Shown piece by piece: positions 4,912-24,074 of a stretch of 64,000 nt of DNA. Under the pieces are notes generated by a model. It made no database searches, was not told the origin of the DNA, and saw nothing but the letters and a program-made list of their open reading frames with translations. The position numbers and the translations under genes were made by a program. The stretch's first letter is position 1; every line of letters starts with the position of its first letter. The stretch spans positions 5,522 to 69,521 of the forward strand of contig WFWY01000148.1 in assembly GCA_015490895.1 (NCBI GenBank), given 5' to 3'. This DNA is from Thiotrichaceae bacterium. GTDB lineage: Bacteria; Pseudomonadota; Gammaproteobacteria; Thiotrichales; Thiotrichaceae.

Positions 4912-5804
4912 TGGCACAGCTCAGTACACAGCTAAAATATTATCAGCAGCGCATAGAAAAGGTACTGGATAGTGTGTTACCACCTGCCACAATCAATCCT
5001 GCACATTTGCATGAGGCTATGCGATACAGTGTTTTGGGGGGCGGTAAGCGGATACGCCCGCTTCTGGTCTATGCTACAGGAGAGGCTTTAGGGATAGATG
5101 CTCATATTCTGGATATCCCGGCAGCAGCCGTTGAGCTCATTCATGTCTACTCGCTTATTCATGATGATTTGCCCGCCATGGATGACGACGATCTGCGGCA
5201 CAACAAGCTTACCTGCCACAAGGCCTTTGATGAGGCCACTGCTATCCTGGCAGGTGATGCGCTACAGGCACTCTCTTCCTATTTACTGGCACACAGCCCA
5301 CAGTTGTCCATACCCGCACGGCAACGCCTTCATTTGATAGAGCTGTTGACCATGGCGTCTGGTTCTCGAGGCATGGCCGGTGGGCAGGCGATTGACCTGA
5401 TGTCCACAGGGCAATCCCTGTCAGAGCCTGAGCTGGAAAATATGCATATCCATAAAACAGGTGCACTGATTCGTGCGGCAGTACAGTTAGCCGTTGTCGC
5501 TGCAGGTGAGACCTCAAGCCACCGAAAAGAAAAGCTGGATCATTATGCAAAATGTGTAGGGCTGGCATTCCAGGTGCGTGATGATATTTTGGATATAGAA
5601 AGTGATACAGAGACATTGGGCAAGCCTCAGGGTGCGGATATAGCACTCGACAAGGTAACCTATCCGGCCATTATGGGGTTGCAAAATGCGAGGGAAAAAG
5701 CATTGCACTTATATACCGAGGCGATTACCCAGCTTGATGCTTTTGGTAGCGAGGCGGATAACCTGCGTAATATCGCAGATTTTATTGTGAAGCGTCTTAA
5801 ATAG
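4911..5804 (+). CDS. ispA: Farnesyl diphosphate synthase (geranyltranstransferase)
   Basis: Two Asp-rich motifs, LIHDDLPAMDDDDLR and FQVRDDILD. 297 aa. Sits in the conserved xseB-ispA-dxs order. Confidence 0.92.
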   Translation: MAQLSTQLKYYQQRIEKVLDSVLPPATINPAHLHEAMRYSVLGGGKRIRPLLVYATGEALGIDAHILDIPAAAVELIHVYSLIHDDLPAMDDDDLRHNKLTCHKAFDEATAILAGDALQALSSYLLAHSPQLSIPARQRLHLIELLTMASGSRGMAGGQAIDLMSTGQSLSEPELENMHIHKTGALIRAAVQLAVVAAGETSSHRKEKLDHYAKCVGLAFQVRDDILDIESDTETLGKPQGADIALDKVTYPAIMGLQNAREKALHLYTEAITQLDAFGSEADNLRNIADFIVKRLK

Positions 5805-5834
5805 ACCTATAGTAGTTCCCTCAATGGTTGTTCA

Positions 5835-7760: not shown

Positions 7761-7786
7761 TCAGAGCGTGAGTAAAGCGAGTTGTC

Positions 7787-8167
7787 ATGGCTGCAAAATA
7801 TACTTTAAAAATTGTTACGGATTTTGCCTCGGCTCATACTTTAAGAGACTATCCGGGTGCCTGTAGCCGTATGCACGGGCATAACTGGAAGGTTGAGGCA
7901 GAAGTTGAGGCTGACCAGCTAGATGCAACAGGCATGGTTATAGATTTTAAAAGAATCAAGCAGGCAACCCGGGAAATTGCCTCCCGGCTGGATCATTATT
8001 ATCTGAATGATATTGAGCCTTTTACGGCACTCAATCCGACTGCTGAAAATATTGCGCGTTACTTTTATGAGGAATTGAGTAAACAGTTAAATACAGACAG
8101 CGTGAAGGTGTCCGCGGTTACCTTGTGGGAAACAGAACGAGCCTGTGTACGATACGCTGAAACCTGA
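7787..8167 (+). CDS. queD: 6-carboxy-5,6,7,8-tetrahydropterin synthase
   Basis: 126 aa. CSRMHGHNWKVE and the TLWETERACVRY C-terminus are typical of the QueD/PTPS family. Confidence 0.85.
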   Translation: MAAKYTLKIVTDFASAHTLRDYPGACSRMHGHNWKVEAEVEADQLDATGMVIDFKRIKQATREIASRLDHYYLNDIEPFTALNPTAENIARYFYEELSKQLNTDSVKVSAVTLWETERACVRYAET

Positions 8168-8279
8168 CAGGTGCAGCGGATAAGCGGAACGACTGTTGAA
8201 AATAACCTTGCATTCCCGTATAGAAAAAACCACAATATGACACGAATAAATAAAGGAACTTACCCTAGGAGACTGCCTA

Positions 8280-8915
8280 ATGAACAAATTTTTGCATGGA
8301 TTTTTTAGCTTTGGATGGCTAAAAGGGCTGGATTTTCTTCCACCGCTGCTTTTCCGTTTTTTCCTGGCTCCCATATTCTGGGTAGAAGGAAGTCGGCGCC
8401 TAGGGCTTTTCGCTGGTGATGATGTGGAATGGTGGAACCCTCTTACATGGATAGACGGTGCGGTTTATCAGCAGGGTGTTGATACCTTGAGCCAGGCACA
8501 GGGTTTTCTGTCGATTCCTGCTCCAGGCATTATGAATGGCGTGATCGGAGGTGTTGAGGTAGCTGCTGCCATTTTGTTGATCATTGGTTTTGCAGTCAGA
8601 TGGATTTCATTACCACTCATGGCGATTTTGCTGGTGATGGGATTGGCGGCAACAAGCTTTGGTACGGATCTGGTTGCAACGGGTAAAGAACTTTTGATGA
8701 CACATGGCTATATGACACCTGCCAATACGGGTATTACCTCGGCGATTACCCTGTTTTTGATGGTACTAGCACTATTTTTTATGGGGGCAGGTCGATTCTT
8801 TAGTCTGGATTGGTGGATACATCACAGTTATTTCAAGAAAATAGTGCGTCAGGAAACGGAGTCGGGTATTCGCCATGACCATGACGATCCGTTTGATGTT
8901 GATACGACTGATTAG
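8280..8915 (+). CDS. DoxX-like integral membrane protein
   Basis: About 4 hydrophobic helices. N-terminal LLFRFFLAPIFWVEG resembles the DoxX family. Acidic C-terminal tail. Confidence 0.5.
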   Translation: MNKFLHGFFSFGWLKGLDFLPPLLFRFFLAPIFWVEGSRRLGLFAGDDVEWWNPLTWIDGAVYQQGVDTLSQAQGFLSIPAPGIMNGVIGGVEVAAAILLIIGFAVRWISLPLMAILLVMGLAATSFGTDLVATGKELLMTHGYMTPANTGITSAITLFLMVLALFFMGAGRFFSLDWWIHHSYFKKIVRQETESGIRHDHDDPFDVDTTD

Positions 8916-9173
8916 TCCGGGAACAGGAAGCATATAGCGAAACGGGGGCTTCAGTCCGTTAAGTCGGGACTGATGTTCCGGCTCCATGAGTGTGTATCAA
9001 TACATATGAAGCTGCTAATAATCCCCAGCTTACTCTCTATTTTGTCCAAGTTGCGTTGAAAGTACTCATTTATTTATAAACCACGTGTTTGCGCCTTTTT
9101 CCTGGAAAGAGCGCGCAATTTGGAAGTTACGGATCGCGCTGGGTAGTTATTTTTGTGTACAAATCGGGTTGGA

Positions 9174-10463
9174 TCAGGAAGTAGAAGTCCGGTCGAATAC
9201 ACATTTTCCCTGAATAAAGGTTTTACTGCTCTTACCTGAAAAGCTCCAGCCTTCAAAGGGTGTGTTCTTTCCCTGACTGACCAGGTCGGATGCTCGTAAC
9301 TGCCAAAAGTCCTGGTTATCAAAGAGGGTAAAATCCGCTTTTCTACCAACCTGTAGCCTGCCCTGCTGGCTACCAGTGATTTCCGCAGGCCGGATAGTGA
9401 CACTGGCAATTGCCTGGTCAAGAGGCATACTTCCTTCTTCACTGAGACGAACAATCAGGGGTAGCAAGGTTTCAAAAGCTGATATGCCCGGTTCTGTTTG
9501 CTGAAAGGGAGCAAGTTTGGCATCAATTTCGTGAGGTTGGTGATCAGAGCAAATGGCATCGATGGTACCATCAGCAACCCCCTGACGTAGGGCTTCCAGG
9601 TCACGTTGGTTGCGTAGCGGTGGTTGTACATGGCAGAGTGGATTAAAGTCACTGATATCCATTTCAGTGAGGAACAGCTGGTGTGCAGCAACATCGGCTG
9701 TTACAGGGAGTCCGCGTTGCTTGGCTGTCCTTACAAGTGTAACGCTGCTGGCCGCTGACAAGCGGCACAGGTGAACGGGCACATCTAACTCTTCAATCAG
9801 GGCAATAATCTGGGCTATTGCTGTGGTTTCTGCGGCAACGGGTATGCCGGGCAATCCCATTCGGGTAGCGACAGGTCCTTCATGGACGCAGCCGTTACCA
9901 ACCAGGGCATGATCAATGGGGTGCAAAAACAGTGGCAGGTTATAGGTGGCAGCATAATCCATTGCCATGCGTAAGGTCCGGGTGTTGGAAAAGGGCTGGC
10001 GCTGATTGCTGACGCCGGTACACCCTGCATATTTTAAACCACCCATATTGGTTAATTGTTTTCCTTTCAGTCCCTGTGTAATGGCCCCAATGACGTTAAC
10101 CCGTACTTTTTTTTCGGCCCTTGCCCGCTTCATAATGAGGTTAACCATGGGCATGTTGTCGATGCTGGTTTCTGGCTCTGGCATATAATAGAGCTGGGTA
10201 ATGCCCGCGCTGACGGCGGCGAGCGCTTCACTTTCTATGCTTGCCTTGAACTCCTGCCCAGGCTCACGCAGATAAGCCGAAAGGTCAATCAAACCAGGAA
10301 AAAGCCACTGTCCAGCGGCATCAATTGTGTGGTCTGCGTGAAAGCTCTCGGGAGGTGTTTTTCCGATATGAGCAATTGTTTTTTCATCAATATAAAGGTT
10401 GCTGATGTCGTTGAAGCCGGAATCAGGGTCAATGATGTGAGCGTTAATAATCTCTTGTTTCAT
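9174..10463 (-). CDS. Dihydroorotase-like protein, probably the non-catalytic PyrC' partner of aspartate carbamoyltransferase
   Basis: 429-aa amidohydrolase/DHOase-like sequence overlapping the pyrB stop by 4 nt. The metal-binding D-x-H-x-H position reads DLSAY (nt 10272-10280), as in Pseudomonas-type PyrC'. Confidence 0.85.
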
Positions 10464-11458
10464 GAAGACTTTCCTGACTGCGAACCCATGGTCATGGACA
10501 TGATAGCCATACGTATGGCTATACCATTCGTCACTTGCGGTAGAATCACCGACTGAGGGCCATCGGCCACCTTGCTATCAATTTCCACACCACGGTTACT
10601 AGGCCCAGGGTGCATGACAATCGCTTTTGGTTTGGCATAACGAAGACCTTCTTCAGTGAGTCCGTAGCGTTTGTAAAATTCATGTGCGGAGGGTAACAGG
10701 GCGTGTTGCATACGTTCTTTTTGCAGGCGCAGCATAATAATAACATCGACATCATCCAGTCCTGCGTGCAAATCATGAAAAACATTCACCCCCATCTGCT
10801 CTATACCGGTAGGAATCAGGGTACGAGGTCCAATAACACGAACTTCTCCTGTACACAGGGTTGTCAGGGCGTGTATTTGTGAACGCGCCACCCGTGAGTG
10901 TAAAATATCTCCAACAATGGCAACTTTTAAAGGGGCAAAGGTGCCCTTGAACTGTCGTATGGTGAGCATATCCAGCATGGCTTGAGTAGGATGGGCATGC
11001 CGACCATCTCCGGCGTTTATCACACTAATGTAGGGGGCGCAGTATCGGGCAATAAAATGTGCTGCCCCGCTATGCTGGTGGCGTACTACAAACATATCGA
11101 CATTCATGGCTTCCAGGTTTCTGATTGTGTCCAGCAAGCTTTCACCTTTGGCGGTGGCAGAGGTGCGGATATCCAGGTTGATAATATCTGCAGAAAGGCG
11201 CTGTGCTGCCAGCTCGAAGGTTGTACGTGTTCGGGTGGAGTTTTCAAAAAAAAGATTAACGACTGTTTTTCCACGCAAAAGAGGGGCTTTGCGTTGTGTT
11301 TTGTTTGGCAGGGTTACAAACTGTTCTGCTCGATTCAGGATTTCCTCGAGCATGAGAGGAGGTAGTCCTTCAACCGTTAAAAAGTGCTTTAGGTGCCCCT
11401 CTTTGGTGAGTTGCAGGCTAGAGGGTAATGGGCCAGGAAGTAAGTCCGGATTAGTCAT
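10460..11458 (-). CDS. pyrB: Aspartate carbamoyltransferase catalytic subunit
   Basis: [13 protein letters not shown] and [11 protein letters not shown] motifs. 332 aa. Confidence 0.95.
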
Positions 11459-11963
11459 TTTTGGTGATGATATTCAGGGCAATGTTGTCCGGACCACTTA
11501 GTTCGATATATTGGTTGGGTTGCAAAGCTTGCTTGATCCCGCTGACATGCGCTTCTATGGGTAACTCCCTGCCTTCGCGTTCGAATAGTATGGCCAATAT
11601 TATACTGGCTGGTCTGCCATAATCATATAGTTCATTCATGGCTGCACGAATCGTTCTTCCGGTGAATAATACATCATCGACCAGGATGATGTGCCGGTCT
11701 TCTACCGAGAAAGGGAGACTGGAAGGGAGGATTTGGGGATGTAACCCGTTGCGGCTAAAATCATCACGGTAAAAGTTAATATTCAATTTTCCAATGACAC
11801 CTGGCAAGTCGAGCTTTTGATGAAGGATATCAGCCAGCCAAACACCGGCAGTATGGATGCCTACCACCAGAGGGTCTTCAATATTTCTTTCTTGCAGATA
11901 GACAGCCAGGTCTTCCGCCATTTGCTGAATCGTTTGTTCAATATTAGCCTGATATGGTTGCAT
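11451..11963 (-). CDS. pyrR: Bifunctional pyrimidine operon regulator / uracil phosphoribosyltransferase PyrR
   Basis: 170 aa. PRPP-binding motif [17 protein letters not shown]. Conserved position upstream of pyrB. Confidence 0.9.
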
Positions 11964-16423: not shown

Positions 16424-16789
16424 ATGACTCCTGTTAATATCACACTTAATCAAAAATCTCGTATACTTGAAATTACCTGGCCCGATGATGTAGTGCATCA
16501 GCTGTCTTGTGAATATCTACGGGTTTCTTCTCCCTCTGCTGAGGTTCAGGGGCATGGGCCTGGTCAGGAAACATTGCAACTGGGCAAGGAAAATATCAAC
16601 ATCAAGGCTATTGAACCTGTAGGTAATTATGCAATCAAGCTGGTTTTTGATGATAACCATGATAGTGGTTTGTATAACTGGGGATACCTTCGGGAGTTAG
16701 GTGATAATATGGAAAGTAACTGGCAAGAATATCTGGAAAAATGCGAAGAGGCAGGTTATCAGCGTAAAGAAGAAGGTCAGGTCATATGA
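16424..16789 (+). CDS. DUF971 (gamma-butyrobetaine hydroxylase-like N-terminal domain) protein
   Basis: 121 aa. LSCEYLRVSSPSAEVQGHGPGQ and GNYAIKLVFDDNHDSGLYNW are typical of DUF971. Confidence 0.7.
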   Translation: MTPVNITLNQKSRILEITWPDDVVHQLSCEYLRVSSPSAEVQGHGPGQETLQLGKENINIKAIEPVGNYAIKLVFDDNHDSGLYNWGYLRELGDNMESNWQEYLEKCEEAGYQRKEEGQVI

Positions 16790-17184
16790 CGAATGATGCC
16801 TTGTCTGGACAGCTGGATAGTCTTGCCTATAATGTTGATGGATTGATTCCGGCCATTGCACAGCAGTATGATACAGGGGAGGTTTTGATGATGGCCTGGA
16901 TGAACCGCGCCGCTATCGCTGAAACCCTGGATACAGGACGAGTCTGTTACTGGTCACGTTCGCGCCAATCCTTTTGGCGTAAGGGTGAGTCGTCTGGACA
17001 GGTGCAGCTGCTCAGGGAGTTGCGCTTTGACTGCGATAAAGATACGTTGTTATTGCAAGTTGACCAGACCGGTCCAGCCTGTCATACCGGGCGGCGTAGT
17101 TGTTTTTACCACAGGGTATCGGGTCATGATGTGGTAATTGATTCTGAGCCGTTGATAGACCCGGCACAACTTTATCCACAATGA
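16786..17184 (+). CDS. hisI: Phosphoribosyl-AMP cyclohydrolase (monofunctional HisI)
   Basis: [48 protein letters not shown] and [20 protein letters not shown]. Overlaps the upstream gene by 4 nt. Confidence 0.9.
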
Positions 17185-17417
17185 AGCGGCTGTTGCTGAT
17201 ACTAATCAGAGCATACCAGCTCATACTAAGCCCTGTATTGGGTAGCCACTGTCGTTTTTACCCCAGTTGCTCATGCTATAGCTATGAAGCTATCACGCGT
17301 CATGGTGGTCTCAAGGGGTTGTACTTGTCTATACGGCGAATATCTCGTTGCCACCCTTGGGGTAAAGGGGGCTATGACCCTGTTCCTGAGGTGCTACTTC
17401 CCAAAAAAAGAAAATGA
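17181..17417 (+). CDS. yidD: Membrane protein insertion efficiency factor YidD
   Basis: 78 aa. [23 protein letters not shown] and [14 protein letters not shown] are canonical YidD. Confidence 0.9.
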
Positions 17418-17757
17418 GTGATATATTTCTTTTAGTTTATTGAAAACAAAAGGATATTATGTTCTATGGTTTGTGATGCCTGCCATTGCATAGTATTGAT
17501 ACGATCCCCCCTCCTTCATATCATCTAGAGTGAAAGCTGGTAATTATCAGTAAGATAGCTATTTTGTTTGGAAAGGGCGCTATCTTGCTGACATTTTTCT
17601 CGAAATACACTTTGTAGGCATAATTTTGATCATAAGAGGGTCTTGCTATACCATAGGGCTGTCATTTTATAAAGACCATAAAAAAATAAGAACAGGTTTC
17701 TAGCTATCAGGCGTAGAAGAACAAGGTTCGCTTACCACAAGCCAAGGGATATCCGTT

Positions 17758-18798
17758 TTGAGATATAAGATTATTATTACAGGGCCAGTAGGGGCAGGAA
17801 AAACGACTGCGATTAACTCCTTGACGGATCAGAAGGCGCTAAAAACAGATGCCCCGGTTTCTGACATGACAACCAGCCAGCGCAAGCCGACTACAACAGT
17901 CGCGCTAGACTACGGTGTTATTCGGCTGAACGAGGAGGATGTTGCACATGTCTACGGTACACCGGGACAGGAGCGCTTTGATTTCATGTGGGAGATCATT
18001 TCAGAAGGGGCGCATGGTCTTGTACTGTTGCTGGATAACAGCCGAAACTATCCTTTTCGGGATTTGCTTTATTATGTAAACCAGTTTCGGGATGTGATTG
18101 AAGCGGTGCCACTAATCATTGGGGTGACACGTTCAGATATCAAAAATGAGCCTGGTATTGACACCTACCGTGGCTGGATAAAAGAGCTTAATCTTGATGC
18201 AAGAGTGATGGTGGCAGATGCACGCAATAAAGAACACATTTACCAGTTAATTAATCAGTTAATCGAGTTGAGAAGTCAGGCAGTTGTGGGCAGCGTCAGA
18301 AAGATTGATAGCAGTAATACAGAGCAGACAAAGGTAGAAACAGGTATTGTCAACCCGCAAGCGTTTCAGGAGCCGAGGGTGCGGCAGCCAGGCGCGGATG
18401 AGGGAGGGGTGATCGCACCCGTTAGAGAGGCAGCATCGTTGGCATCGACACCAATGGCCTCGGCAAAGATACAGCTGACAGAAAAATCCATGGCAGCAGT
18501 AGCCAAAATTAATGGAGTGACGGGTGTTTCTTTAACGAATGATATGGGCGAGCTGATTGATTCTACTATTCTTGATGAAGATCTCAATGAGTTTATTGCC
18601 TTTCTCTCCGGTATCACACCGTCCATTCAAGAGGCTGCCAACCTGGGAGAAATTCACCGGATAATGTTAAGGGGCGTGAATGATGACAACCTAACGGTCT
18701 TTGTGGAAGAAGAGCAGTCACTGGGTGTTACTTCGTTGCATAAGACCTCGGTGCCTGCATTAAGCCAACAAATCGAAGATATGCTGCAATGGATATGA
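17758..18798 (+). CDS. Ras-like (MglA/CvnD-type) GTPase fused to a C-terminal Roadblock/LC7-like domain
   Basis: TTG start. G1 GPVGAGKTT, G3 GTPGQERF, G4-like GVTRSD. After a linker, about 110 aa resemble Roadblock/LC7 (VAKINGVTGVSLTNDMGELIDS...EIHRIMLRGVNDDNLTVFVEEEQSLGVTS). Confidence 0.7.
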   Translation: MRYKIIITGPVGAGKTTAINSLTDQKALKTDAPVSDMTTSQRKPTTTVALDYGVIRLNEEDVAHVYGTPGQERFDFMWEIISEGAHGLVLLLDNSRNYPFRDLLYYVNQFRDVIEAVPLIIGVTRSDIKNEPGIDTYRGWIKELNLDARVMVADARNKEHIYQLINQLIELRSQAVVGSVRKIDSSNTEQTKVETGIVNPQAFQEPRVRQPGADEGGVIAPVREAASLASTPMASAKIQLTEKSMAAVAKINGVTGVSLTNDMGELIDSTILDEDLNEFIAFLSGITPSIQEAANLGEIHRIMLRGVNDDNLTVFVEEEQSLGVTSLHKTSVPALSQQIEDMLQWI

Positions 18799-19475
18799 TG
18801 AACCAGATCGTGACGAATATTAGTGCGCTTCGAGGCGTGCATTATGCGTGTCTTTATAAAGATGGGGAGCAGCTGGCATCTTCTTTTCCTGAAGATCAAC
18901 AAGCTTCTATCATTCAGACTGCCGAAATTGTCGAGCAGGCATTTAGTGCACTGGAAGCCATCCAGAAAACACACAATGAAATGTACTTTTCTGTAAAGGA
19001 TAAATATCTTGCTACTTTCCGTTTATATGGCTCGCATTTCGCCATTTTATTGACAGAGAAAAAGATCAACTTTCCCCTGGTTCACATGGGGATCAAGTCT
19101 GCATCAGAAAAAATAAGACATATTATTGAAGAGGAAAAAAAGCAACAAGCCTTGATTGAAGCTCAGGCACAAATACAGGAAGCTCAAGCACAAATACAAC
19201 AAGCGCCGGTGGAAACAGCTGCTACAACCACAGCGCTAATTGTTCCAACTGAGCCCGCCTTACTGAAAAAGCTGGATCAATATTCCGCAGTACTGACCTC
19301 TTTTCTGGGTCCTGCAGCCCGTTTCGTTGTTGAAGACTGCGTAGATCAGTGGAAGCAGAAATATATTCAGAATGAAGATAATCTGGAGCATTTGGTAGAA
19401 CTTATACAGCAAGAGCTGGATACCGATGATGAAAGACAGCGATTTGCTCAGCAAATCAAATTGATTGTAGGTTGA
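18789..19475 (+). CDS. Roadblock/LC7-like protein with Gln/Ala-rich linker and unknown C-terminal domain
   Basis: The N-terminus resembles the Roadblock fold pattern (ISALRGVHYACLYKDGEQLASSF...YFSVKDKYLATFRLYGSHFAILLTE). The start is 18789 or 18795 (ATGA overlap with the upstream stop). Confidence 0.55.
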   Translation: MDMMNQIVTNISALRGVHYACLYKDGEQLASSFPEDQQASIIQTAEIVEQAFSALEAIQKTHNEMYFSVKDKYLATFRLYGSHFAILLTEKKINFPLVHMGIKSASEKIRHIIEEEKKQQALIEAQAQIQEAQAQIQQAPVETAATTTALIVPTEPALLKKLDQYSAVLTSFLGPAARFVVEDCVDQWKQKYIQNEDNLEHLVELIQQELDTDDERQRFAQQIKLIVG

Positions 19476-19484
19476 TAACACGTT

Positions 19485-19517
19485 AACGACTCATGACTTA
19501 TTCAGAGGCTCTTTAAG
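19485..19517. repeat. Solo right-TIR copy inside the GTPase cluster (between genes 2 and 3)
   Basis: AACGACTCATGACTTATTCAGAGGCTCTTTAAG. Confidence 0.6.
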
Positions 19518-19531
19518 GGTATCAAAACAGG

Positions 19532-20725
19532 ATGACATGGATAATGAATAAAATAAGAAATAAATTATTACTGGTTTTAGTTATTGTTACCTTGGTGCCC
19601 GCTATTCTCATTGGTGCCTACAGTTTGTATTCGACATCGAAAGTATTGCGTGAGAATGTTCTGGCATCTCATGTCAATAAAGTCAGTTTAATTCAGGAGC
19701 GCATTGAGAACCGACTTAGTGGCGTTGACAGTGATATTTTTTTATTGCGGGATTCAAATGCATTGCATCTATTCCTGTCATCAACTGAATCAGAAGGGAG
19801 TCGTACCCGGCGGCTTTTACTAGGTAACTTGCGCTCTAGCTTCAAGAAATTTTCTGAGAAAAAAGGGCTGTATCAACAAGTCAGGTTTATTGATGCAGAG
19901 GGTCAGGAAATTGTGCGTATAGACAGAAATGGAAATGAGTCCAGAAATGTTTCTGACACACACTTGCAGAATAAGTCATCGCGTTACTATTTTTCCAATG
20001 CACTTGATCTGGATGATGGAGAGCTGTTTATTTCTCCGATGGATTTGAACCGGGAGCAAGATGAAATCGTTAAGCCTTACCAACCAACTATTCGTTATGC
20101 TACCCCTGTATTTGATAAGAATGAAGTACTAAGAGGGTTAATTGTTCTCAATGTCGATGCCAGAAAAATCATTGAGATAATCGAGGAACAGAACAAACCT
20201 GGAGAACAGCTTATGTTTGTTGATCCGGAGGGTTTTTATTATTACCACCCGAATAAAGAAAAAGAATGGGGGGGGGAGCGCGACTTAAATACAGGGATTA
20301 GCCTGTTTAAGGAAAATAAGGCGCTAGTTCGAAAATTAAAGGGAGTGAAGAAACTGGACTATATTGAAACGGATGGCGATATCCTGATTTATAACCCGAT
20401 TTCTATACAGCAAAAAGGGCACTTTTTAGGAACACTGTTTAGTGTGCAGCCTAAAGCAGTTTTGTTTAAGCCGCTGCAGGATTATCTGCTCATCTTTTTG
20501 GGAATTGCGCTGGCGGCTTTGTTGCTTGCATTATTGTTGGCGGTTGTCTTGTCCAACTCCATTACCCGTCCATTAATCAGTCTGAAAGAAAGTGTGGAAA
20601 AACTGAGTGCAGGAGATATGGAGACTCCAATTACAGTGGATACCAAAGATGAAATCAGTGATGTGGCTCACGCGATTGAGTTGTTGCGTAAATCAATGAG
20701 AATATTGATGAAACGGTCTCGATAG
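19532..20725 (+). CDS. Membrane sensor: TM - periplasmic Cache-like domain - TM - HAMP, with no output domain
   Basis: N-terminal TM helix and a ~270-aa extracytoplasmic domain with Cache-type motifs (YQQVRFIDAEGQEIVRIDRNG, NKSSRYYF, GELFISPMDLNRE, PTIRYATPVF). A second TM helix and a HAMP domain follow (ITRPLISLKESVEKLSAGDMETPITVDTKDEISDVAHAIELL). The ORF ends 14 aa after HAMP. An alternative start is ATG 19544. Confidence 0.7.
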   Translation: MTWIMNKIRNKLLLVLVIVTLVPAILIGAYSLYSTSKVLRENVLASHVNKVSLIQERIENRLSGVDSDIFLLRDSNALHLFLSSTESEGSRTRRLLLGNLRSSFKKFSEKKGLYQQVRFIDAEGQEIVRIDRNGNESRNVSDTHLQNKSSRYYFSNALDLDDGELFISPMDLNREQDEIVKPYQPTIRYATPVFDKNEVLRGLIVLNVDARKIIEIIEEQNKPGEQLMFVDPEGFYYYHPNKEKEWGGERDLNTGISLFKENKALVRKLKGVKKLDYIETDGDILIYNPISIQQKGHFLGTLFSVQPKAVLFKPLQDYLLIFLGIALAALLLALLLAVVLSNSITRPLISLKESVEKLSAGDMETPITVDTKDEISDVAHAIELLRKSMRILMKRSR

Positions 20726-20750
20726 GCTCTTGGCAGGCAAAGGTGAATAC

Positions 20751-21035
20751 ATGAAAAATTTATTACTCTTGGTGTTTGTTCTGGCAGTGATCGTTGCGGG
20801 AGGGATTTATTGGTATGCCTCACGGATGGCTTCGGTCTCTGGCGTGGCTCATGGGCAGCCAGAGAAACTAACGCCTTCTGCTCCAGCCGAACAGGGTATG
20901 CTTCAGGCTCAGGGATCTGGAGCGGCTTTATTCGATTTGAAGAGCTCAATACAAGATGTTATAGAGGATTCAGTTCAGGAAGAGATACAGCATGCAGTAG
21001 AAGACAAGATCAAAGAAACTGAAGAGAATCAGTAG
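20751..21035 (+). CDS. Small single-pass membrane protein
   Basis: ATG 20751 preceded by AGGTGA. N-terminal TM helix (LLLLVFVLAVIVAGGIYWY) and an acidic C-terminal helix. No family recognised. Confidence 0.45.
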   Translation: MKNLLLLVFVLAVIVAGGIYWYASRMASVSGVAHGQPEKLTPSAPAEQGMLQAQGSGAALFDLKSSIQDVIEDSVQEEIQHAVEDKIKETEENQ

Positions 21036-21116
21036 TGGTTGGCAATGGCTTTGTCAAAGGCTGAATCAGAAAGTGAGTATGGATGCGAGGTTATAAATAT
21101 TATGAGAGAGAAAAAT

Positions 21117-21782
21117 ATGAAGTACAGTCAAAAGATTAGAAACATTATACATTGGGAGGCGATTCTGCTGATGATGCTATTTTTTTCATCATCACTAGTT
21201 CATGCAGAAGAAGAATACAAAGTTAAAATTACAGCCGATATGCCTTACCTGGATGTACAGCATGGTGGCAAAATAGTCCGTATAGAGCGTATTCAGGACA
21301 CAGAACATCGTCTGACCAACAGTTTTTCGAAGACATCGCGGGTTTGTCCTCCTTTTTGTGTTAACCCAATCGAGCTATCACCTCAAATTAAAACGGTCGG
21401 TGAGCTTGAACTACTTAAGTTTCTTGACAATGAGGTGAAGAACAACAAAGGGTTACTGGTCGATGCCAGGATGCCGGAGTGGTTTGAAAGGGGGACTATT
21501 CCTGGTTCGGTAAATATCCCCTTTACGGTATTGAGTAAAGGGCTGGATAGCAAGCATACGGTAAAAATTCTGAAATTACTGGGTGCTACCGAAAAAGAAG
21601 GAAAATGGGACTTTAGTAAGGCACGTCAACTAATGCTTTTTTGTAATGGAGCATGGTGTGGGCAGTCTCCCAAGGCATTGAGAAATCTTTCATCCATTGG
21701 CTATCCGGAAGAGAAACTGTTTTGGTATCGTGATGGTATGCAATCGTGGCAACAGTTAGGGCTAACGACGGTTACCCCCTAA
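21117..21782 (+). CDS. Exported rhodanese-domain protein
   Basis: Signal peptide (ILLMMLFFSSSLVHA). Rhodanese-like C-terminal domain with putative active-site loop FCNGAWCGQS. An extra CPPFC motif lies in the N-terminal part. The start could be 21102 or 21117. Confidence 0.65.
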   Translation: MKYSQKIRNIIHWEAILLMMLFFSSSLVHAEEEYKVKITADMPYLDVQHGGKIVRIERIQDTEHRLTNSFSKTSRVCPPFCVNPIELSPQIKTVGELELLKFLDNEVKNNKGLLVDARMPEWFERGTIPGSVNIPFTVLSKGLDSKHTVKILKLLGATEKEGKWDFSKARQLMLFCNGAWCGQSPKALRNLSSIGYPEEKLFWYRDGMQSWQQLGLTTVTP

Positions 21783-21804
21783 AGCAAAAAAACGGGAGAA
21801 TAAG

Positions 21805-22542
21805 ATGATGAAAAAAGCAAAACTAACTGGGGTTTGTATTGCGTTGATGTTGAGCACGACAGCTCTGGCGGAAACAGGAGCCTTGAAGGCCTCTGATGAA
21901 GAGTTAGAGGTTTTAAGTGCCGAGGCCAGCCACACCATTATGAAAGAGGAAACTCCAGAGACTCCGGTTGCCGATGAGCCTGCCGTGGCCCCGTCTGCAA
22001 CAACGAATGTTGAAGCCCTGTCTGAATCGGTTGCCAAACAATTGACGGGTATATTGGGTGCACCGGATGCAGGTGACGAGAAAAAGACCGAGGCGAAGCT
22101 GGAAGGCATGGTCTCTTCGGCGCTGTTAGAAGGAGCGAATATGGATGATTTACGCTCTGCAGTGAGTGCTGCAATGGAGGATATTGCAGTTTCTGAACAG
22201 GAAGGGGTAACTGCTGAGAAAGTAAAAAAAGCGGAACGATCCCTGAAAAAGCTGGTTGGAAAAGCTGATGACGATTATGTCAAACAACAGCAGCGAGAAG
22301 CTGAAGCTTTTGCGTCTTCATTAAAATCAGGTGCATCGGTAAGCGATAAAAAGGGTGTTGTAGAGAGTACCTCACAGGATGCCGACACGGTTATTGTTCA
22401 GCCAGGTGAATCTCTCTACAAAATTGCATTACGAATTTATGGCAGTGGAGATAATTTTGTACGGCTTTATGAGGCTAATAAAGACAGAATTGTCGATCCA
22501 AACCTTATTCGTGTAGGTCAAGTATTACGAGTGCCACATTAA
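21805..22542 (+). CDS. Secreted LysM-domain protein
   Basis: Signal peptide (GVCIALMLSTTALA), an acidic low-complexity middle, and a C-terminal LysM domain (VIVQPGESLYKIALRIYGSGDNFVRLYEANKDRIVDPNLIRVGQVLRVP). Confidence 0.7.
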   Translation: MMKKAKLTGVCIALMLSTTALAETGALKASDEELEVLSAEASHTIMKEETPETPVADEPAVAPSATTNVEALSESVAKQLTGILGAPDAGDEKKTEAKLEGMVSSALLEGANMDDLRSAVSAAMEDIAVSEQEGVTAEKVKKAERSLKKLVGKADDDYVKQQQREAEAFASSLKSGASVSDKKGVVESTSQDADTVIVQPGESLYKIALRIYGSGDNFVRLYEANKDRIVDPNLIRVGQVLRVPH

Positions 22543-22740
22543 TTCTGCATCCTCCTGTTTTAAGAGATAGCCTTCGGTGTCGTGATTGTCATCTGCTCTC
22601 GTTTTAGATCTGTACATAGCATGGCTATTTCTAACCCGGTTCAGCGGTAACCAGGATGCTCTGTGAAGTAAAAGAGTGACATTAATAGGTAAGTATATTA
22701 TATTATACCGGAATTCTAATATTACTAGGGACTCCTTTAC

Positions 22741-23091
22741 ATGGCTAACATGGAATATTCAAACTTGGGTGATGGATGTGTAGTCACTACTCAACTCTTG
22801 GCAAAAGATGAAGATGTTGAACGTGCATCGAGGTCTTTGAAAGCCATCTCGCACCCTTTGCGTCTCAAGATTCTTTGTGTACTGGGCGACAAAGAAGTGA
22901 GTGTCCAGGAAATTGTTGAAATTGTTGGAACCTCACAAAGCAATATCTCTCAGCATCTTGCTATTTTGCGAGACAAAGGTGTACTTTCTTCGCGTAAGGA
23001 TGCCAATCGCGTTTTTTATAGTGTAGGTGATCGACGTATTTTAAAGCTGGTCAGCATGATGCAGGAAGTCTTTTGTCCCGCACATCTCTAA
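22741..23091 (+). CDS. ArsR/SmtB-family transcriptional regulator (candidate SqrR/BigR-type)
   Basis: HPLRLKILCVLGDKEVSVQEIVEIVGTSQSNISQHLAILRDKGVL winged helix. Apart from Cys13 in the non-conserved N-terminal tail, the cysteines are Cys46 in helix 2 and Cys112 near the C-terminus. Confidence 0.85.
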   Translation: MANMEYSNLGDGCVVTTQLLAKDEDVERASRSLKAISHPLRLKILCVLGDKEVSVQEIVEIVGTSQSNISQHLAILRDKGVLSSRKDANRVFYSVGDRRILKLVSMMQEVFCPAHL

Positions 23092-23306
23092 AAAGCTTCA
23101 TTTTTGTAGTATAGGTTGACAGCATTGCAAGGGGCTTATGCACAGGCTGTATTAACGAACCTACCGTCCCTCATTACTTCTGGTTCAGGAGGCGGGCGAC
23201 CTTTTTCTTTCACTTCGTACACTTTCTATGCGAGAAAACGCTATTTCGGGGTTTACGGATAGTCTTGCCGCGTATATCGTATGCATTTTTGAAATGGATT
23301 TGATTC

Positions 23307-23732
23307 ATGGCTGAATACCAAGAGTTTGCTCGCTCTCACCCTTATCTCGTTTTTGGTTTCCTGGCAGTGCTGGGATTTATCATCTGGTCTGAACTTGGTC
23401 GGCTGAGTCGTAAATATCGGCAACTGGGTGTGAATGAAGCGGTTCGGTTGCTCAACAAAGATAATGTCCTGTTACTGGATGTAAGAGAAGACAAAGAGCT
23501 TGATGGCGGAGTCATCCAGAATGCAAAGCATATCCCCATGAGTGAATTGAACCAGCGTCTCTCTGAGATAGAAAAAAGTAAAAATCAGCCCGTTTTGGTG
23601 TATTGTCGCAGTGGCAGTCGTTCTGCACATGCCTGTCAGACACTAACAAAGCAGGGCTTTGAAGATGTATCAAATCTTGCAGGAGGCGTGTTAGCCTGGG
23701 AGTCTGCGAATCTGCCGCTAGTTAAGAGATAA
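23307..23732 (+). CDS. Membrane-anchored rhodanese (YibN-like)
   Basis: N-terminal TM helix. Rhodanese domain with active-site loop CRSGSRS. Conserved yibN-grxC-secB-gpsA order as in E. coli. Confidence 0.8.
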   Translation: MAEYQEFARSHPYLVFGFLAVLGFIIWSELGRLSRKYRQLGVNEAVRLLNKDNVLLLDVREDKELDGGVIQNAKHIPMSELNQRLSEIEKSKNQPVLVYCRSGSRSAHACQTLTKQGFEDVSNLAGGVLAWESANLPLVKR

Positions 23733-23735
23733 GGT

Positions 23736-24074
23736 ATGGCTGGTAATAAAACACCCCTGAATAACAGAGCCAGCCGACAGGGTGCAGGGCATGGTGAACT
23801 GTCAGCTGATAAGGTGGTAGTGTATGGAACCCTTTTTTGCCCCTATTGTATGCGTGCTCGCAAGCTACTGAAGAGCAAAAAGGTTGCTTATACGGAAATT
23901 CGTGTTGATGGTGATAAAAAGCTGAGAAAAGAAATGGAGCGATTATCAGGAAGAGATAGCGTGCCACAAATATTCGTAGGTAAGGTACATATAGGAGGCT
24001 ATGATGACCTGGCTGCCCTGAATCGTAAAGGTGAACTGGATACAATGCTTCAGAAACTTAAGGAGCACGTCTAA
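23736..24074 (+). CDS. grxC: Glutaredoxin 3
   Basis: VVVYGTLFCPYCMRARKLL, SVPQIFVGKVHIGGYDDL. Carries a ~25-aa N-terminal extension if ATG 23736 is used. GTG 23814 is an alternative start. Confidence 0.85.
   Translation: MAGNKTPLNNRASRQGAGHGELSADKVVVYGTLFCPYCMRARKLLKSKKVAYTEIRVDGDKKLRKEMERLSGRDSVPQIFVGKVHIGGYDDLAALNRKGELDTMLQKLKEHV

What the first reader, a model, noticed from the sequence alone, without database searches (positions are those of the whole stretch)
17758..21035. Kinase-less, conservon-like module: GTPase-Roadblock fusion, second Roadblock protein, output-less Cache-HAMP sensor and small membrane protein
Seen in sequence:
- Four co-directional, tightly spaced or overlapping genes follow a 340-bp AT-rich intergenic region.
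- Gene 1 (17758-18798) has Ras-like G motifs (GPVGAGKTT, GTPGQERF, GVTRSD). After a linker it carries a ~110-aa C-terminal region with the alternating pattern of Roadblock/LC7 domains.
- Gene 2 overlaps gene 1 (ATGA) and starts with another Roadblock-like domain.
- Gene 3 is TM-Cache-TM-HAMP and stops right after HAMP.
- Gene 4 is a single-pass membrane protein.

Established knowledge: small Ras-like GTPases pair with Roadblock/LC7 partners in MglA/MglB polarity switches. In Streptomyces conservons (CvnA sensor kinase, CvnB Roadblock, CvnC DUF742, CvnD GTPase) a membrane sensor is genetically linked to the GTPase.

Inference: this locus has the sensor-Roadblock-GTPase logic but lacks a histidine-kinase ATPase domain and DUF742, and it fuses the GTPase to its putative regulator. 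It could therefore be a distinct transmembrane-signal-to-GTPase switch. The cluster looks more AT-rich than its flanks by eye, which may indicate horizontal origin.
Basis: partly seen in the sequence, partly recalled or inferred. Interest (0 to 1): 0.75.

Follow-up and report, generated by a model that had tools for sequence, protein, structure and literature searches.

The report
Roadblock-fused GTPase with kinase-less sensor
This is a conserved, uncharacterised six-gene operon of marine sulfur bacteria in which a small Ras-like GTPase is permanently fused to its own regulator domain and sits next to a membrane sensor that has no enzymatic output, which suggests a receptor-to-G-protein signalling route in bacteria that nobody has tested.

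Summary
Four co-directional genes sit at the stated coordinates with the stated motifs and domains.

- **Gene 1:** an MglA-family "Group 3" G domain (P-loop, TPGQ, G4 = TRSD, G5 = DAR), a disordered linker, then a C-terminal Roadblock domain. This is the same two-domain plan as eukaryotic and Asgard Rag/Gtr GTPases.
- **Gene 2:** a Roadblock domain, a long helix and a three-helix DUF8082 bundle.
- **Gene 3:** a TM-Cache-TM-HAMP sensor. About 100 homologue clusters all stop after HAMP, so it is not a pseudogene. Its nearest kinase-bearing relatives belong to ordinary two-component systems.

The real unit is larger than reported. A small periplasmic anchored protein, a four-cysteine periplasmic rhodanese and a LysM protein follow in the same order in at least six different chromosomal neighbourhoods, so the unit spans 17758-22542.

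The GTPase-Roadblock gene and the gene 2 homologue are paired in nearly every locus examined. The sensor is frequent but not universal.

This is not a conservon. It is a fused sister lineage of the beta/gamma-proteobacterial MglA/MglB systems. Recent horizontal transfer is not supported.

The signalling mechanism (sensor to Roadblock heterodimer to GTPase) is inferred, and the output is unknown. I rate it a new variant of a known kind, of moderate to high interest.

The parts
17418..17757 (+). 340-bp AT-rich upstream intergenic region. It holds a block of about 90 nt (roughly 17570-17660) conserved in two related genomes, containing TCTTGCT twice (17583-17589 and 17641-17647). It is the presumed promoter/5' leader of the operon.
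   Evidence: GC is 0.365. The alignment with L003 and L004 shows the conserved block and a conserved AGGnATATCCG-TTTTG start region. There is no Rfam match. A sigma-70-like site at 17496-17524 is not conserved.
17758..18291 (+). Gene 1, residues 1-178: Ras-like G domain of the MglA family, Group 3 type. Motifs: P-loop GPVGAGKTT, switch I R42-K43/T46-T47, switch II YGTPGQERF, G4 TRSD, G5 DAR.
   Evidence: Pfam ATP_bind_1 46 bits, Ras 33.6, Roc 29.9. A PDB profile search finds Rab, Ran and Ras. The domain is 50-56% identical to stand-alone GTPases of Neisseria, Thiothrix and others, with hhalign E = 2e-82. The motif definitions come from PMC4316618.
18307..18456 (+). Gene 1, residues 184-233: disordered linker of variable length and sequence between the G domain and the Roadblock domain.
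   Evidence: pLDDT is below 50 for residues 184-206 and 213-233. The alignments show no conservation and variable length.
18481..18798 (+). Gene 1, residues 242-346 plus the stop codon: C-terminal Roadblock/LC7 domain. It ends in a strongly conserved helix (SVPALSQQIEDMLQW).
   Evidence: The model topology is alpha-beta-beta-alpha-beta-beta-beta-alpha with pLDDT about 90. Robl_LC7 reaches E <= 0.01 in 44 of 84 homologues, best 2e-5. The best Foldseek matches that cover both domains are the Loki RagA-like GTPase 8yl2_B and Gtr1/Gtr2 (6jwp_B, 4arz_B). Invariant columns are listed.
18789..19475 (+). Gene 2 (228 aa; the start may be the ATG at 18795, giving the ATGA overlap with gene 1). It has an N-terminal Roadblock domain (residues 3-95, 18795-19073), a long helix (96-137), a variable linker, and a C-terminal three-helix bundle that is Pfam DUF8082 (residues 156-227, 19254-19469).
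   Evidence: The model has pLDDT 82. Foldseek matches the Thorarchaeota Roadblock 7f8m, MglB 6hjm/6izw, the Streptomyces Roadblock proteins 3leq/3kye and LAMTOR, all at probability 1.0 and TMt 0.6-0.78. Homologues carry a precomputed PF26309 annotation. There are 213 representative clusters in the family. DUF8082 also follows Pfam-positive Robl_LC7 domains and a PATAN (DUF4388) domain in other proteins.
19532..20725 (+). Gene 3 (397 aa; likely start 19544): TM1, a periplasmic double-Cache-type sensor domain (residues about 40-295), TM2 (about 318-343) and HAMP (340-389). It ends 8 residues after HAMP with the conserved tail AIELLRKSMxILMKR. It has no output domain.
   Evidence: Pfam HK_sensor_dom_bact 83.6 bits, HAMP 42 bits, dCache_1. 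About 100 homologue clusters are all 383-402 aa with the same domains. Tail conservation is shown. The protein aligns over its full length with the first 400 residues of the 614-aa HisKA_3 kinase P0255 and stops where that protein's HAMP ends.
20751..21035 (+). Gene 4 (94 aa from the ATG at 20751; the ORF opens at 20730): an N-terminal membrane anchor, a variable spacer and a conserved C-terminal acidic amphipathic helix (SIQDVIEDSVQEEIQHAVEDKI). It is probably periplasmic.
   Evidence: The sequence is. A small gene of 83-130 aa occupies this position in L002-L004, L007-L010, L012 and L083-L085. The shared C-terminal motif is visible. The L010 version has a lipoprotein signal (LSAC).
21102..21782 (+). 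Gene 5 (226 aa from the ATG at 21102; the ORF opens at 21039): a secreted rhodanese-domain protein with four invariant cysteines (KTSRxCPPFC and FCNGxWCxQS).
   Evidence: Pfam Rhodanese E = 9.6e-12. An N-terminal signal-like hydrophobic segment is visible. The gene is conserved in this position in at least 10 loci.
21805..22542 (+). Gene 6 (245 aa): a secreted protein with a signal peptide, an acidic helical region and a C-terminal LysM peptidoglycan-binding domain. It is the last gene of the conserved block.
   Evidence: Pfam LysM E = 3.8e-9. Homologues follow the rhodanese gene in L002-L010 and L083-L085. In Leucothrix a shorter homologue comes directly after the sensor or the small gene.

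Best explanation
This is a six-gene operon (17758-22542) encoding an envelope-to-cytoplasm signalling module built around a small GTPase that is tethered to its own regulator.

**Shown**
- Gene 1 is an MglA-family (Group 3-type) G domain joined by a flexible linker to a Roadblock domain.
- Gene 2 is a second Roadblock domain carrying a DUF8082 helical bundle.
- Gene 3 is a Cache-HAMP transmembrane sensor that never has a kinase.
- Genes 4-6 carry a membrane anchor or signal sequence and are probably periplasmic: an anchored acidic-helix protein, a four-cysteine rhodanese and a LysM protein.
- The block is conserved as a unit in different chromosomal contexts.

**Inferred mechanism**
1. The Roadblock domain of gene 1 pairs with the Roadblock domain of gene 2. 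This would form the usual two-subunit Roadblock platform, as in MglB dimers, LAMTOR2/3 and the RagA/RagC C-terminal domains.
2. Because the platform is covalently tethered, it acts on the G domain in cis as a GAP and/or exchange factor. This sets the GTP/GDP state.
3. The Cache domain reads a periplasmic cue. The cue may be sulfur or redox related and delivered or modified by the rhodanese, or it may be related to the cell wall through the LysM protein.
4. The HAMP domain, with its conserved C-terminal tail, passes the change on by direct protein contact. The most plausible partner is the DUF8082 bundle or the Roadblock platform. No phosphotransfer is involved.
5. The GTP-bound G domain then engages an effector that is not encoded in the operon. 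By analogy with MglA systems this would be a polarity, pilus or motility machine, but the output is unknown.
For: - **Domain assignments:**
- **Group 3 affinity:** the G domain is 50-56% identical to stand-alone GTPases that sit in [REC-like protein]-[GTPase]-[~215 aa]-[~120 aa Roadblock] operons. It has the TRSD/DAR motifs described for Groups 2 and 3 in PMC4316618.
- **One G domain with two Roadblock partners is ancestral:** this is the arrangement in Group 3 systems. Here one partner is fused and the other is translationally coupled.
- **Pairing of the two genes:** in all but two of the full-length fusion loci tabulated, the fused gene is immediately followed by a gene 2 homologue. In tandem duplicates most copies have their own partner (L015; L024, L028, L037, L046).
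- **DUF8082 recurs:** it follows other Roadblock domains and a PATAN domain.
- **Sensor:** it is conserved without any output domain in about 100 clusters and has a conserved post-HAMP tail. The same sensor is adjacent in Thiotrichaceae, Chromatiales MAGs and Pontibacterium.
- **Six-gene block with different flanks:** yidD/arsR, metG, secDF (downstream VWA in L085), recC-GST/hisBH and rpsT/hisBH; Leucothrix keeps a shorter block without the rhodanese gene in yet another context.
- **MglB can be GAP or exchange factor:** published data show this depends on the local MglA concentration (PMC13408092). That makes a tethered regulator mechanistically meaningful.
Against: - No interaction was tested.
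- The sensor is absent next to the fused pair in Thiomargarita (L014), L013 and Neptuniibacter. Amphritea L018 has neither a gene 2 nor a sensor homologue next to its fused gene, and the Amphritea L021 blast row likewise lists no gene 2 or gene 3 match, although its ORFs were not inspected. The GTPase pair can therefore work without an adjacent sensor.
- No effector is encoded in the operon.
- At the sequence level the Roadblock domains are barely detectable. Gene 2 has no Pfam Robl_LC7 hit in 29 members, and the hhalign probabilities were low.
- Genes 4-6 are confined to Thiotrichaceae-like genomes and may serve a parallel envelope function.
- GTP binding and hydrolysis are not shown for this family, whose G4 lacks the canonical lysine.
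Confidence: 0.55

Rival explanations
1. The fused GTPase and gene 2 form a self-contained MglA/MglB-like polarity or motility switch. The Cache-HAMP protein and the three periplasmic proteins are a separate envelope function that only shares a transcript. The sensor does not signal to the GTPase.
For: The gene 1 and gene 2 pair occurs without an adjacent sensor in L013, L014 (Thiomargarita) and Neptuniibacter, where gene 2 is only about 120 aa and lacks DUF8082. MglA effectors and inputs are usually encoded elsewhere (PMC4316618). Group 3 loci have been linked to pilus-dependent behaviour in Snodgrassella (PMC11112851).
Against: The same sensor family is adjacent to the pair in three orders, with different flanks. 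The sensor has no output domain of its own yet keeps a highly conserved cytoplasmic HAMP tail, which needs a protein partner. Gene spacing is tight throughout.
Confidence: 0.2
2. It is a kinase-less member or degenerate derivative of the actinobacterial conservon (AGPS: CvnA kinase, CvnB Roadblock, CvnC DUF742, CvnD GTPase), acquired horizontally.
For: It shares the same logic of a membrane HAMP sensor plus Roadblock plus a small GTPase of the MglA family. Pfam ATP_bind_1 is the best G-domain model, and NCBI names the homologues 'ATP/GTP-binding protein'. GC is somewhat low in genes 2, 3 and 5.
Against: - The G domain groups with beta/gamma-proteobacterial Group 3 GTPases at 50-56% identity.
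- G4 is TRSD, not the Group 2 NxFD.
- There is no DUF742 and no HATPase domain.
- The sensor's nearest kinase relatives are Cache-HAMP-HisKA_3 kinases of ordinary two-component systems with a NarL-type regulator.
- Conserved housekeeping synteny argues against recent transfer.
Confidence: 0.05
3. Signalling runs from the inside out. The nucleotide state of the tethered GTPase controls the conformation of the HAMP-Cache protein, and through it the periplasmic LysM, rhodanese and anchored proteins. This could, for example, couple a cytoplasmic polarity or motility cue to the cell wall.
For: Three probably periplasmic proteins, including a peptidoglycan-binding LysM protein, are the only other conserved operon members, and no cytoplasmic effector is encoded. 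MglA-controlled gliding complexes are known to connect to peptidoglycan (title and abstract of PMC11014575).
Against: Cache-HAMP modules are known as outside-in sensors. Nothing here distinguishes the direction. The periplasmic genes are missing from the Chromatiales and Oceanospirillales versions that still keep the sensor.
Confidence: 0.1
4. Gene 3 is a decayed fragment of a histidine kinase or cyclase, so the cluster is not a designed kinase-less system.
For: Gene 3 aligns with the N-terminal 400 residues of 611-626 aa HisKA_3/HATPase kinases at about 31-36% identity.
Against: About 100 clusters spanning 37-100% identity all have the same 383-402 aa length and the same end point, with a conserved tail. 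Only 25 bp separate the stop codon from gene 4, which leaves no room for kinase remnants.
Confidence: 0.02

Closest known systems
Group 3 MglA/MglB systems of beta- and gamma-proteobacteria (Wuichet & Sogaard-Andersen 2014, PMC4316618), for example in Neisseria, Kingella, Snodgrassella, Thiothrix and Sphaerotilus
   Same: The G domain is clearly homologous: 50-56% identity, the same switch I R-K/T-T residues, YGTPGQERF, a non-canonical G4 and a DAR G5. One GTPase is coupled to two Roadblock-type partners. The taxonomic range is the same, and one Thiotrichaceae MAG carries both types (L010 and L047).
   Different: Here one Roadblock partner is fused to the GTPase, and the other carries a DUF8082 bundle. 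The upstream REC-like/wHTH protein of Group 3 operons is absent. It is replaced by a downstream Cache-HAMP sensor and three probably periplasmic proteins. In a neighbour-joining tree the fused G domains separate from the stand-alone clan.
Rag/Gtr GTPases of eukaryotes and Rag-like GTPases of Asgard archaea (for example Gtr1-Gtr2 4arz, EGOC 6jwp, Loki RagA-like 8yl2)
   Same: They share the domain plan of an N-terminal Ras-like G domain plus a C-terminal Roadblock domain. They are the top Foldseek matches covering both domains. They have Roadblock-only partner proteins (Ragulator/LAMTOR), analogous to gene 2. Some Oceanospirillales loci even encode two paralogous fused GTPases in tandem.
   Different: No Gtr1_RagA Pfam match was listed. 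The G domain is of bacterial MglA Group 3 descent, so the fusion is most likely independent. A long disordered linker separates the domains. The TM-scores are low (0.31-0.40) because the domain orientation differs. There is no evidence of lysosome- or TOR-like partners.
Actinobacterial conservons / AGPS (CvnA-D, MfpB-D)
   Same: Both have a membrane HAMP-containing sensor, a Roadblock protein and an MglA-family GTPase encoded together, with the GTPase as the presumed output instead of a response regulator.
   Different: There is no kinase core and no DUF742 exchange-factor protein. The G domain belongs to a different MglA group and the phylum is different. The GTPase is fused to Roadblock. Periplasmic accessory proteins are present.
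Myxococcus and Thermus MglA/MglB (Group 1)
   Same: Both pair a Ras-like GTPase with a Roadblock regulator. The gene 2 model superposes on MglB (6hjm, 6izw, 1j3w). The conserved C-terminal helix of the gene 1 Roadblock domain recalls the regulatory C-terminal helix of MglB.
   Different: MglB is a separate homodimer and the G4/G5 motifs differ. Inputs come from Frz/RomR rather than an adjacent Cache-HAMP sensor.

Membership tests
MglA family, Group 3 (PMC4316618) | Ras-superfamily G domain with a P-loop and a switch II glutamine (TPGQ) | tested here: met
   The GPVGAGKTT and YGTPGQERF motifs are invariant. Pfam Ras, Roc and ATP_bind_1 score above their cut-offs. A PDB profile search finds Rab and Ras proteins.
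MglA family, Group 3 (PMC4316618) | G4 deviates from [NT]KxD (the lysine is often lacking) and G5 is DAR | tested here: met
   G4 is T124-R125-S126-D127 and G5 is D154-A155-R156. T124, D127, D154 and R156 are invariant in the fused-family alignments; D154 and R156 remain invariant when stand-alone Group 3 GTPases are added. The definition is quoted.
MglA family, Group 3 (PMC4316618) | Closest relatives are the beta/gamma-proteobacterial GTPases (Neisseria and others) | tested here: met
   Residues 4-169 are 49-56% identical to GTPases of Neisseria, Kingella, Thiothrix and Sphaerotilus. hhalign gives E = 2e-82.
MglA family, Group 3 (PMC4316618) | Single-domain GTPase of about 180 aa | tested here: not met
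   The protein is 346 aa with a linker and a C-terminal Roadblock domain. At least 120 homologue clusters of 312-390 aa cover 97-100% of it.
MglA family, Group 3 (PMC4316618) | Operon with an upstream conserved REC-like/wHTH protein | tested here: not met
   The upstream gene is yidD, after a 340-bp gap. The 365-480 aa upstream protein seen in 49 of the 57 stand-alone loci is absent from the fused loci.
MglA family, Group 3 (PMC4316618) | Coupled to one or two MglB (Roadblock) homologues | tested here: met
   There are two Roadblock domains, one fused and one in the overlapping gene 2.
Actinobacterial conservon / AGPS | CvnA-type sensor with a histidine-kinase ATPase core | tested here: not met
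   Gene 3 has only Cache and HAMP, with no HisKA or HATPase_c. The same is true of about 100 homologue clusters.
Actinobacterial conservon / AGPS | CvnC-type DUF742 protein | tested here: not met
   No DUF742 match appears in any of the ten proteins scanned from 16424 to 23091.
Actinobacterial conservon / AGPS | Group 2 GTPase (G4 NxFD) in Actinomycetota | tested here: not met
   G4 is TRSD. The carriers are Thiotrichaceae and other Gammaproteobacteria.
Actinobacterial conservon / AGPS | Roadblock/MglB-type protein encoded with the GTPase | tested here: met
   The Streptomyces Roadblock structures 3leq and 3kye are among the fold matches.
Rag/Gtr GTPases | G domain followed by a C-terminal Roadblock domain in one polypeptide | tested here: met
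   The Foldseek matches covering both domains are 8yl2_B, 6jwp_B and 4arz_B, over 370-378 aligned columns.
Rag/Gtr GTPases | Sequence membership (Gtr1_RagA family) | tested here: not met
   No such Pfam family appears among the hits for gene 1 at E <= 0.1, nor among the first 25 of 36 families matched by its 84 homologues. Identity to the Rag structures is 10-12%.
Rag/Gtr GTPases | Obligate dimer formed through the Roadblock domains | not testable with these tools
The pairing with gene 2 is inferred from gene order only.
Cache-HAMP transmembrane sensors (MCP / histidine-kinase type input modules) | TM, periplasmic Cache, TM, then cytoplasmic HAMP | tested here: met
   HK_sensor_dom_bact matches residues 65-295, dCache_1 residues 40-244 and HAMP residues 340-389. 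Hydrophobic segments flank the Cache domain.
Cache-HAMP transmembrane sensors (MCP / histidine-kinase type input modules) | A covalently attached output domain (kinase, MCP signalling, GGDEF and so on) | tested here: not met
   The protein ends 8 residues after HAMP.

The most novel reading that the evidence does not exclude
Gammaproteobacteria may have independently evolved a Rag/Ragulator-like device, a GTPase fused to a Roadblock domain that pairs with a Roadblock adaptor, and docked it directly onto a kinase-less transmembrane Cache-HAMP receptor. That would be a true receptor-to-G-protein pathway that bypasses phosphorylation. The DUF8082 bundle would be the coupling element, and periplasmic sulfur/redox (four-cysteine rhodanese) and cell-wall (LysM) proteins would act as co-receptors.
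Probability: 0.3. Interest if true: 0.8.

Novelty: new variant of a known kind. Interest (0 to 1): 0.62.

Why it matters
Small Ras-like GTPases with Roadblock regulators are an ancient switch shared by bacteria, archaea and eukaryotes. How bacterial versions receive signals is known only for Myxococcus (through Frz/RomR) and is still being worked out for actinobacterial conservons (through a kinase-like sensor).

This family offers a simple, compact case. It pairs a sensor that has no catalytic output with a GTPase whose regulator is tethered in cis. It would allow direct tests of three questions:
- Can a HAMP domain drive a G-protein switch by contact alone?
- What does tethering do to the dual GAP/exchange behaviour reported for MglB?
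- Can the G-domain-plus-Roadblock architecture of Rag GTPases arise convergently?

It also assigns a context to DUF8082. It points to an uncharacterised envelope sulfur/redox or cell-wall sensing route in Thiotrichaceae, some of which (Leucothrix, Cocleimonas) can be cultured.

Tried and rejected
- **Truncated-kinase pseudogene:** rejected, because length, end point and tail are conserved in about 100 clusters.
- **Kinase-bearing relatives linked to GTPases:** the one context examined (P0255) is an ordinary kinase plus NarL-type regulator pair.
- **Recent horizontal transfer:** rejected. The hslVU-hisI-yidD and arsR-grx-secB-gpsA flanks are kept in relatives down to 53% gene 1 identity. The lower GC of genes 2, 3 and 5 is only about 2-3 sd.
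- **Anti-phage defence system:** no PADLOC match for any of the six proteins.
- **Riboswitch or known RNA in the 340-bp leader:** no Rfam match.
- **Sequence-profile link between these Roadblock domains and the Group 3 MglB proteins:** the hhalign probabilities were negligible, so orthology of the individual Roadblock domains could not be established. Fold evidence was used instead.
- **Gene 2 against Pfam:** no Robl_LC7 hit in 29 members. The local Pfam copy lacks PF26309.
- **Literature:** nothing was found for DUF8082 or LokiRagO, and nothing describing bacterial GTPase-Roadblock fusions next to Cache-HAMP sensors. The library is incomplete, so this is not proof of absence.
- **Paralogues in the window:** none.

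Full report
**1. Observation.** They lie on the + strand after a 340-bp intergenic region of 36.5% GC.
- Gene 1 (17758-18798, TTG start preceded by AGGGA) carries GPVGAGKTT, YGTPGQERF and GVTRSD.
- Gene 2 overlaps it. ATG codons lie at 18789 and 18795, and the second gives the ATGA overlap with the gene 1 TGA stop.
- Gene 3 most likely starts at 19544, and gene 4 at 20751, 25 bp after the gene 3 stop.
- Two further genes follow with short gaps. One is a rhodanese protein (from 21102, about 67 bp after gene 4). The other is a LysM protein (21805-22542).
- A 198-bp gap then precedes an ArsR-type regulator gene.

**2. Gene 1.**
- *G domain, sequence.* Pfam places residues 1-175 in ATP_bind_1 (46 bits), Ras and Roc, all above their cut-offs. 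A profile of 84 homologues finds Rab, Ran and Ras chains in the PDB.
- *Model.* The AlphaFold model (84-sequence alignment, mean pLDDT 77.8) has a confident G domain, a disordered linker (residues 184-233) and a confident C-terminal alpha-beta-beta-alpha-beta-beta-beta-alpha domain at residues 242-345.
- *Roadblock support, sequence.* Robl_LC7 scores only E = 0.006 in the window protein, but it reaches E <= 0.01 in 44 of the 84 homologues, best 2e-5.
- *Roadblock support, fold.* The Foldseek matches that span both domains are a Lokiarchaeal RagA-like GTPase (8yl2_B) and yeast Gtr proteins (6jwp_B, 4arz_B). Single-domain Rab, Ras and MglA chains follow.
- *Conservation.* Both domains are strongly conserved while the linker varies in length and sequence. 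The last helix (SVPALSQQIEDMLQW) is nearly invariant.

The fusion is therefore real and under selection. At least 120 clusters at 90% identity, of 312-390 aa, cover 97-100% of the query.

**3. Lineage of the G domain.** A scan of species-representative genomes returned two kinds of relative.
- Full-length fusions occur in Thiotrichaceae (Leucothrix, Cocleimonas, Thiomargarita), Chromatiales MAGs and Oceanospirillales (Pontibacterium, Neptuniibacter, Amphritea).
- Stand-alone GTPases of 178-180 aa that are 49-56% identical over residues 4-169 occur in Neisseria, Kingella, Eikenella, Snodgrassella, Aquitalea, Thiothrix, Thiolinea, Sphaerotilus and others.

The stand-alone genes sit in a very regular operon. 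It reads [365-480 aa protein]-[GTPase]-[~215 aa]-[~120 aa Pfam-positive Roadblock].

This is the "Group 3" MglA system of Wuichet and Sogaard-Andersen. That group is confined to beta/gamma-proteobacteria. Its G4 departs from [NT]KxD, its G5 is DAR, and it has a REC-like/wHTH protein and one or two MglB homologues (PMC4316618).

The window protein has TRSD and an invariant DAR, and shares switch I R-K/T-T with the stand-alone proteins. Profile-profile comparison of the G domains gives E = 2e-82.

In a neighbour-joining tree the stand-alone GTPases form one clan and all fused ones lie outside it. This is compatible with a single fusion event, although the tree is unrooted and simple. One Thiotrichaceae MAG carries both a fused locus (L010) and a stand-alone locus (L047). 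The fused module is therefore a separate system, not a replacement.

**4. Gene 2.** The model (pLDDT 82) shows four parts:
- a Roadblock-topology domain (residues 3-95);
- a 40-residue helix;
- a variable linker;
- a three-helix bundle (residues 156-227).

Foldseek matches Asgard Roadblock proteins, Myxococcus and Thermus MglB, the Streptomyces Roadblock proteins and LAMTOR subunits, at probability 1.0 and target TM 0.6-0.78.

Sequence models miss the Roadblock domain. Databases annotate the C-terminal bundle as DUF8082, PF26309.

An exhaustive profile search finds 213 representative clusters, mostly 205-235 aa and matched end to end. A few proteins have DUF8082 following a Pfam-positive Robl_LC7 domain or a PATAN (DUF4388) domain. 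DUF8082 is therefore a recurrent appendage of Roadblock-type signalling proteins. No paper in the searchable library mentions it.

**5. Gene 3.** The architecture is TM, double-Cache-type sensor domain, TM, HAMP, ending 8 residues after HAMP.
- About 100 homologue clusters from 100% down to 37% identity are all 383-402 aa with the same domains.
- Only below about 36% identity do 611-626 aa proteins with HisKA_3 and HATPase_c appear.
- Gene 3 aligns over its full length with the first 400 residues of one such kinase and stops where its HAMP ends.
- That kinase sits next to a NarL-type response regulator, not a GTPase.
- The cytoplasmic tail AIELLRKSMxILMKR is among the best conserved parts of the family.

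The pseudogene explanation is rejected. The protein is a dedicated output-less sensor that must act through a protein partner.

**6. Extent and conservation of the unit.** I called ORFs in all fetched loci and compared them with the window proteins.
- *Core pair.* In all but two of the full-length fusion loci tabulated, the fused GTPase gene is immediately followed by a gene 2 homologue. The clear exception is Amphritea L018. The Amphritea L021 blast row likewise lists no gene 2 match, but its ORFs were not inspected. In L019 the fused gene is split, apparently by a frameshift.
- *Tandem duplicates.* In Pontibacterium each of the two copies has its own partner, and the same holds for most copies in Neptuniibacter. 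In Neptuniibacter the partner is only about 120 aa and lacks DUF8082.
- *Sensor.* It follows in the Thiotrichaceae loci except Thiomargarita L014 and two loci that lack it or are cut off (L006, L019), in two Chromatiales MAGs and in Pontibacterium. It is absent in Thiomargarita, L013, Neptuniibacter and Amphritea.
- *Genes 4-6.* In Thiotrichaceae-like genomes a small membrane-anchored gene, the rhodanese gene and the LysM gene follow in the same order.
- *Flanks.* This six-gene block has at least five different flanks. They are yidD/arsR (window, L003, L004, L008), metG (L007, L009), secDF (L010, L085; downstream VWA in L085), recC-GST/hisBH (L083) and rpsT/hisBH (L084).
- *Leucothrix.* It keeps GTPase, gene 2, sensor, an optional small gene and a short LysM homologue, in yet another context.

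The functional unit in the window is therefore 17758-22542.

**7. The probably periplasmic trio.**
- *Gene 4.* Homologues share only an N-terminal hydrophobic anchor and a C-terminal acidic amphipathic helix (consensus S-I-x-x-x-V-x-D-S-I-Q-x-D-I-Q-x-A-V). One homologue has a lipoprotein signal instead of the anchor, which places the conserved helix in the periplasm.
- *Gene 5.* It has a signal-like N-terminus and a rhodanese domain. Four cysteines are invariant, in KTSRxCPPFC and FCNGxWCxQS. This suggests sulfur-transfer or thiol-redox chemistry.
- *Gene 6.* It has a signal peptide and a C-terminal LysM domain.

Together with the Cache domain, these put four conserved elements in the periplasm.

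**8. Mechanism (inferred).** Roadblock proteins act as dimers that form a platform for one GTPase, as in MglB2-MglA, LAMTOR2/3 and the RagA/RagC C-terminal domains. This is established knowledge, and the structures appear among the matches.

Group 3 systems already pair one GTPase with two different Roadblock-type proteins. The simplest reading has three steps:
1. The fused Roadblock domain and the gene 2 Roadblock domain heterodimerise.
2. The platform regulates the tethered G domain in cis.
3. The HAMP domain of the sensor modulates this platform by contact, perhaps through DUF8082.

Recent kinetic work reports that MglB behaves as a GAP or as an exchange factor depending on the local MglA-GDP concentration (PMC13408092). 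A covalent tether would fix that concentration, which gives the fusion a plausible functional meaning.

The output is not encoded in the operon. Group 3 loci have been tentatively connected with pilus-dependent motility and host colonisation in Snodgrassella (PMC11112851), but nothing here tests that link. None of the interactions was tested, and I give the whole mechanism about even odds.

**9. Comparison with known systems.**
- *Group 3 MglA/MglB.* The module works like an MglA/MglB switch and its G domain descends from Group 3 stock. It fails two Group 3 features: a single-domain GTPase and the upstream REC-like protein.
- *Conservon.* It shares sensor-Roadblock-GTPase logic with the conservon. 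It fails the kinase core, DUF742, the Group 2 G4 motif and the taxon.
- *Rag/Gtr.* It shares the G-plus-Roadblock plan with Rag/Gtr and Asgard Rag-like GTPases but is not a sequence member of that family. The fusion is most economically explained as convergent.

I found no description of this family in the searchable literature.

**10. Origin.** Genes 2, 3 and 5 have the lowest GC among the long ORFs of the window (0.40-0.42 against 0.479 +/- 0.027), while gene 1 is average. The housekeeping flanks are identical in relatives whose module proteins have diverged to about 53% identity. The cluster is therefore old and vertically inherited in this lineage. It evolves faster than its neighbours.

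**11. Verdict.** This is a conserved but unstudied variant of the MglA/MglB theme with three distinctive features:
- a Rag-like fused GTPase;
- a kinase-less Cache-HAMP sensor;
- a periplasmic rhodanese/LysM accessory set.

Interest is 0.62, and the novelty class is a new variant of a known kind.

Noticed in passing
L020-L081 (for example L041 at 5442-9412 and L026 at 5837-11951): The stand-alone relatives of the G domain sit in a very regular operon in Neisseriaceae, Thiothrix, Sphaerotilus and others. It reads [365-480 aa protein with no Pfam match]-[178-180 aa GTPase]-[~215 aa with only a faint Roadblock signal]-[~120 aa clear Roadblock]. In Thiothrix a PAS protein and a phosphonate-type binding protein often follow. 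This is the poorly studied 'Group 3' MglA system.
   Followed up: partly
window 17570-17660: The 340-bp leader contains a block of about 90 nt conserved in two related genomes. TCTTGCT occurs twice, 58 nt apart (17583 and 17641). It has no Rfam match and could be a regulator binding site or a leader RNA.
   Followed up: partly
L009 (QOAQ01000028.1): This contig is labelled 'Aquificaceae bacterium' but carries the full six-gene block and a metG flank nearly identical in arrangement to the Cocleimonas contig L007. It is probably a binning error.
   Followed up: no
L005 at 1476-3912: On a contig of about 1.4x coverage, gene 2 is split into two ORFs, and the sensor reads through into the gene 4 homologue to give a 476-aa ORF. 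These are most likely sequencing errors rather than a true sensor and small-protein fusion.
   Followed up: no
L015, L024, L028, L037, L046: Oceanospirillales (Pontibacterium, Neptuniibacter) carry two paralogous GTPase-Roadblock fusions in tandem, most followed by their own small Roadblock gene. The arrangement recalls the RagA/RagC pair plus Ragulator subunits.
   Followed up: partly
window 21102-21782: The periplasmic rhodanese has four invariant cysteines (CPPFC and CNGxWC). It also shows weak similarity to the PQQ-associated CXXCW-motif rhodanese family (TIGR03865, E = 3e-6). It is better conserved than the signalling proteins beside it.
   Followed up: partly
P0400: In this 455-aa protein, DUF8082 follows a PATAN (DUF4388) domain. 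PATAN is another domain known to associate with MglB-type systems.
   Followed up: no
window 22741-24074: Directly downstream lie an ArsR-family regulator, a second membrane-anchored rhodanese and a glutaredoxin. The same order is kept in related genomes (L004, L008), so the locus as a whole is rich in thiol and sulfur-handling genes.
   Followed up: no
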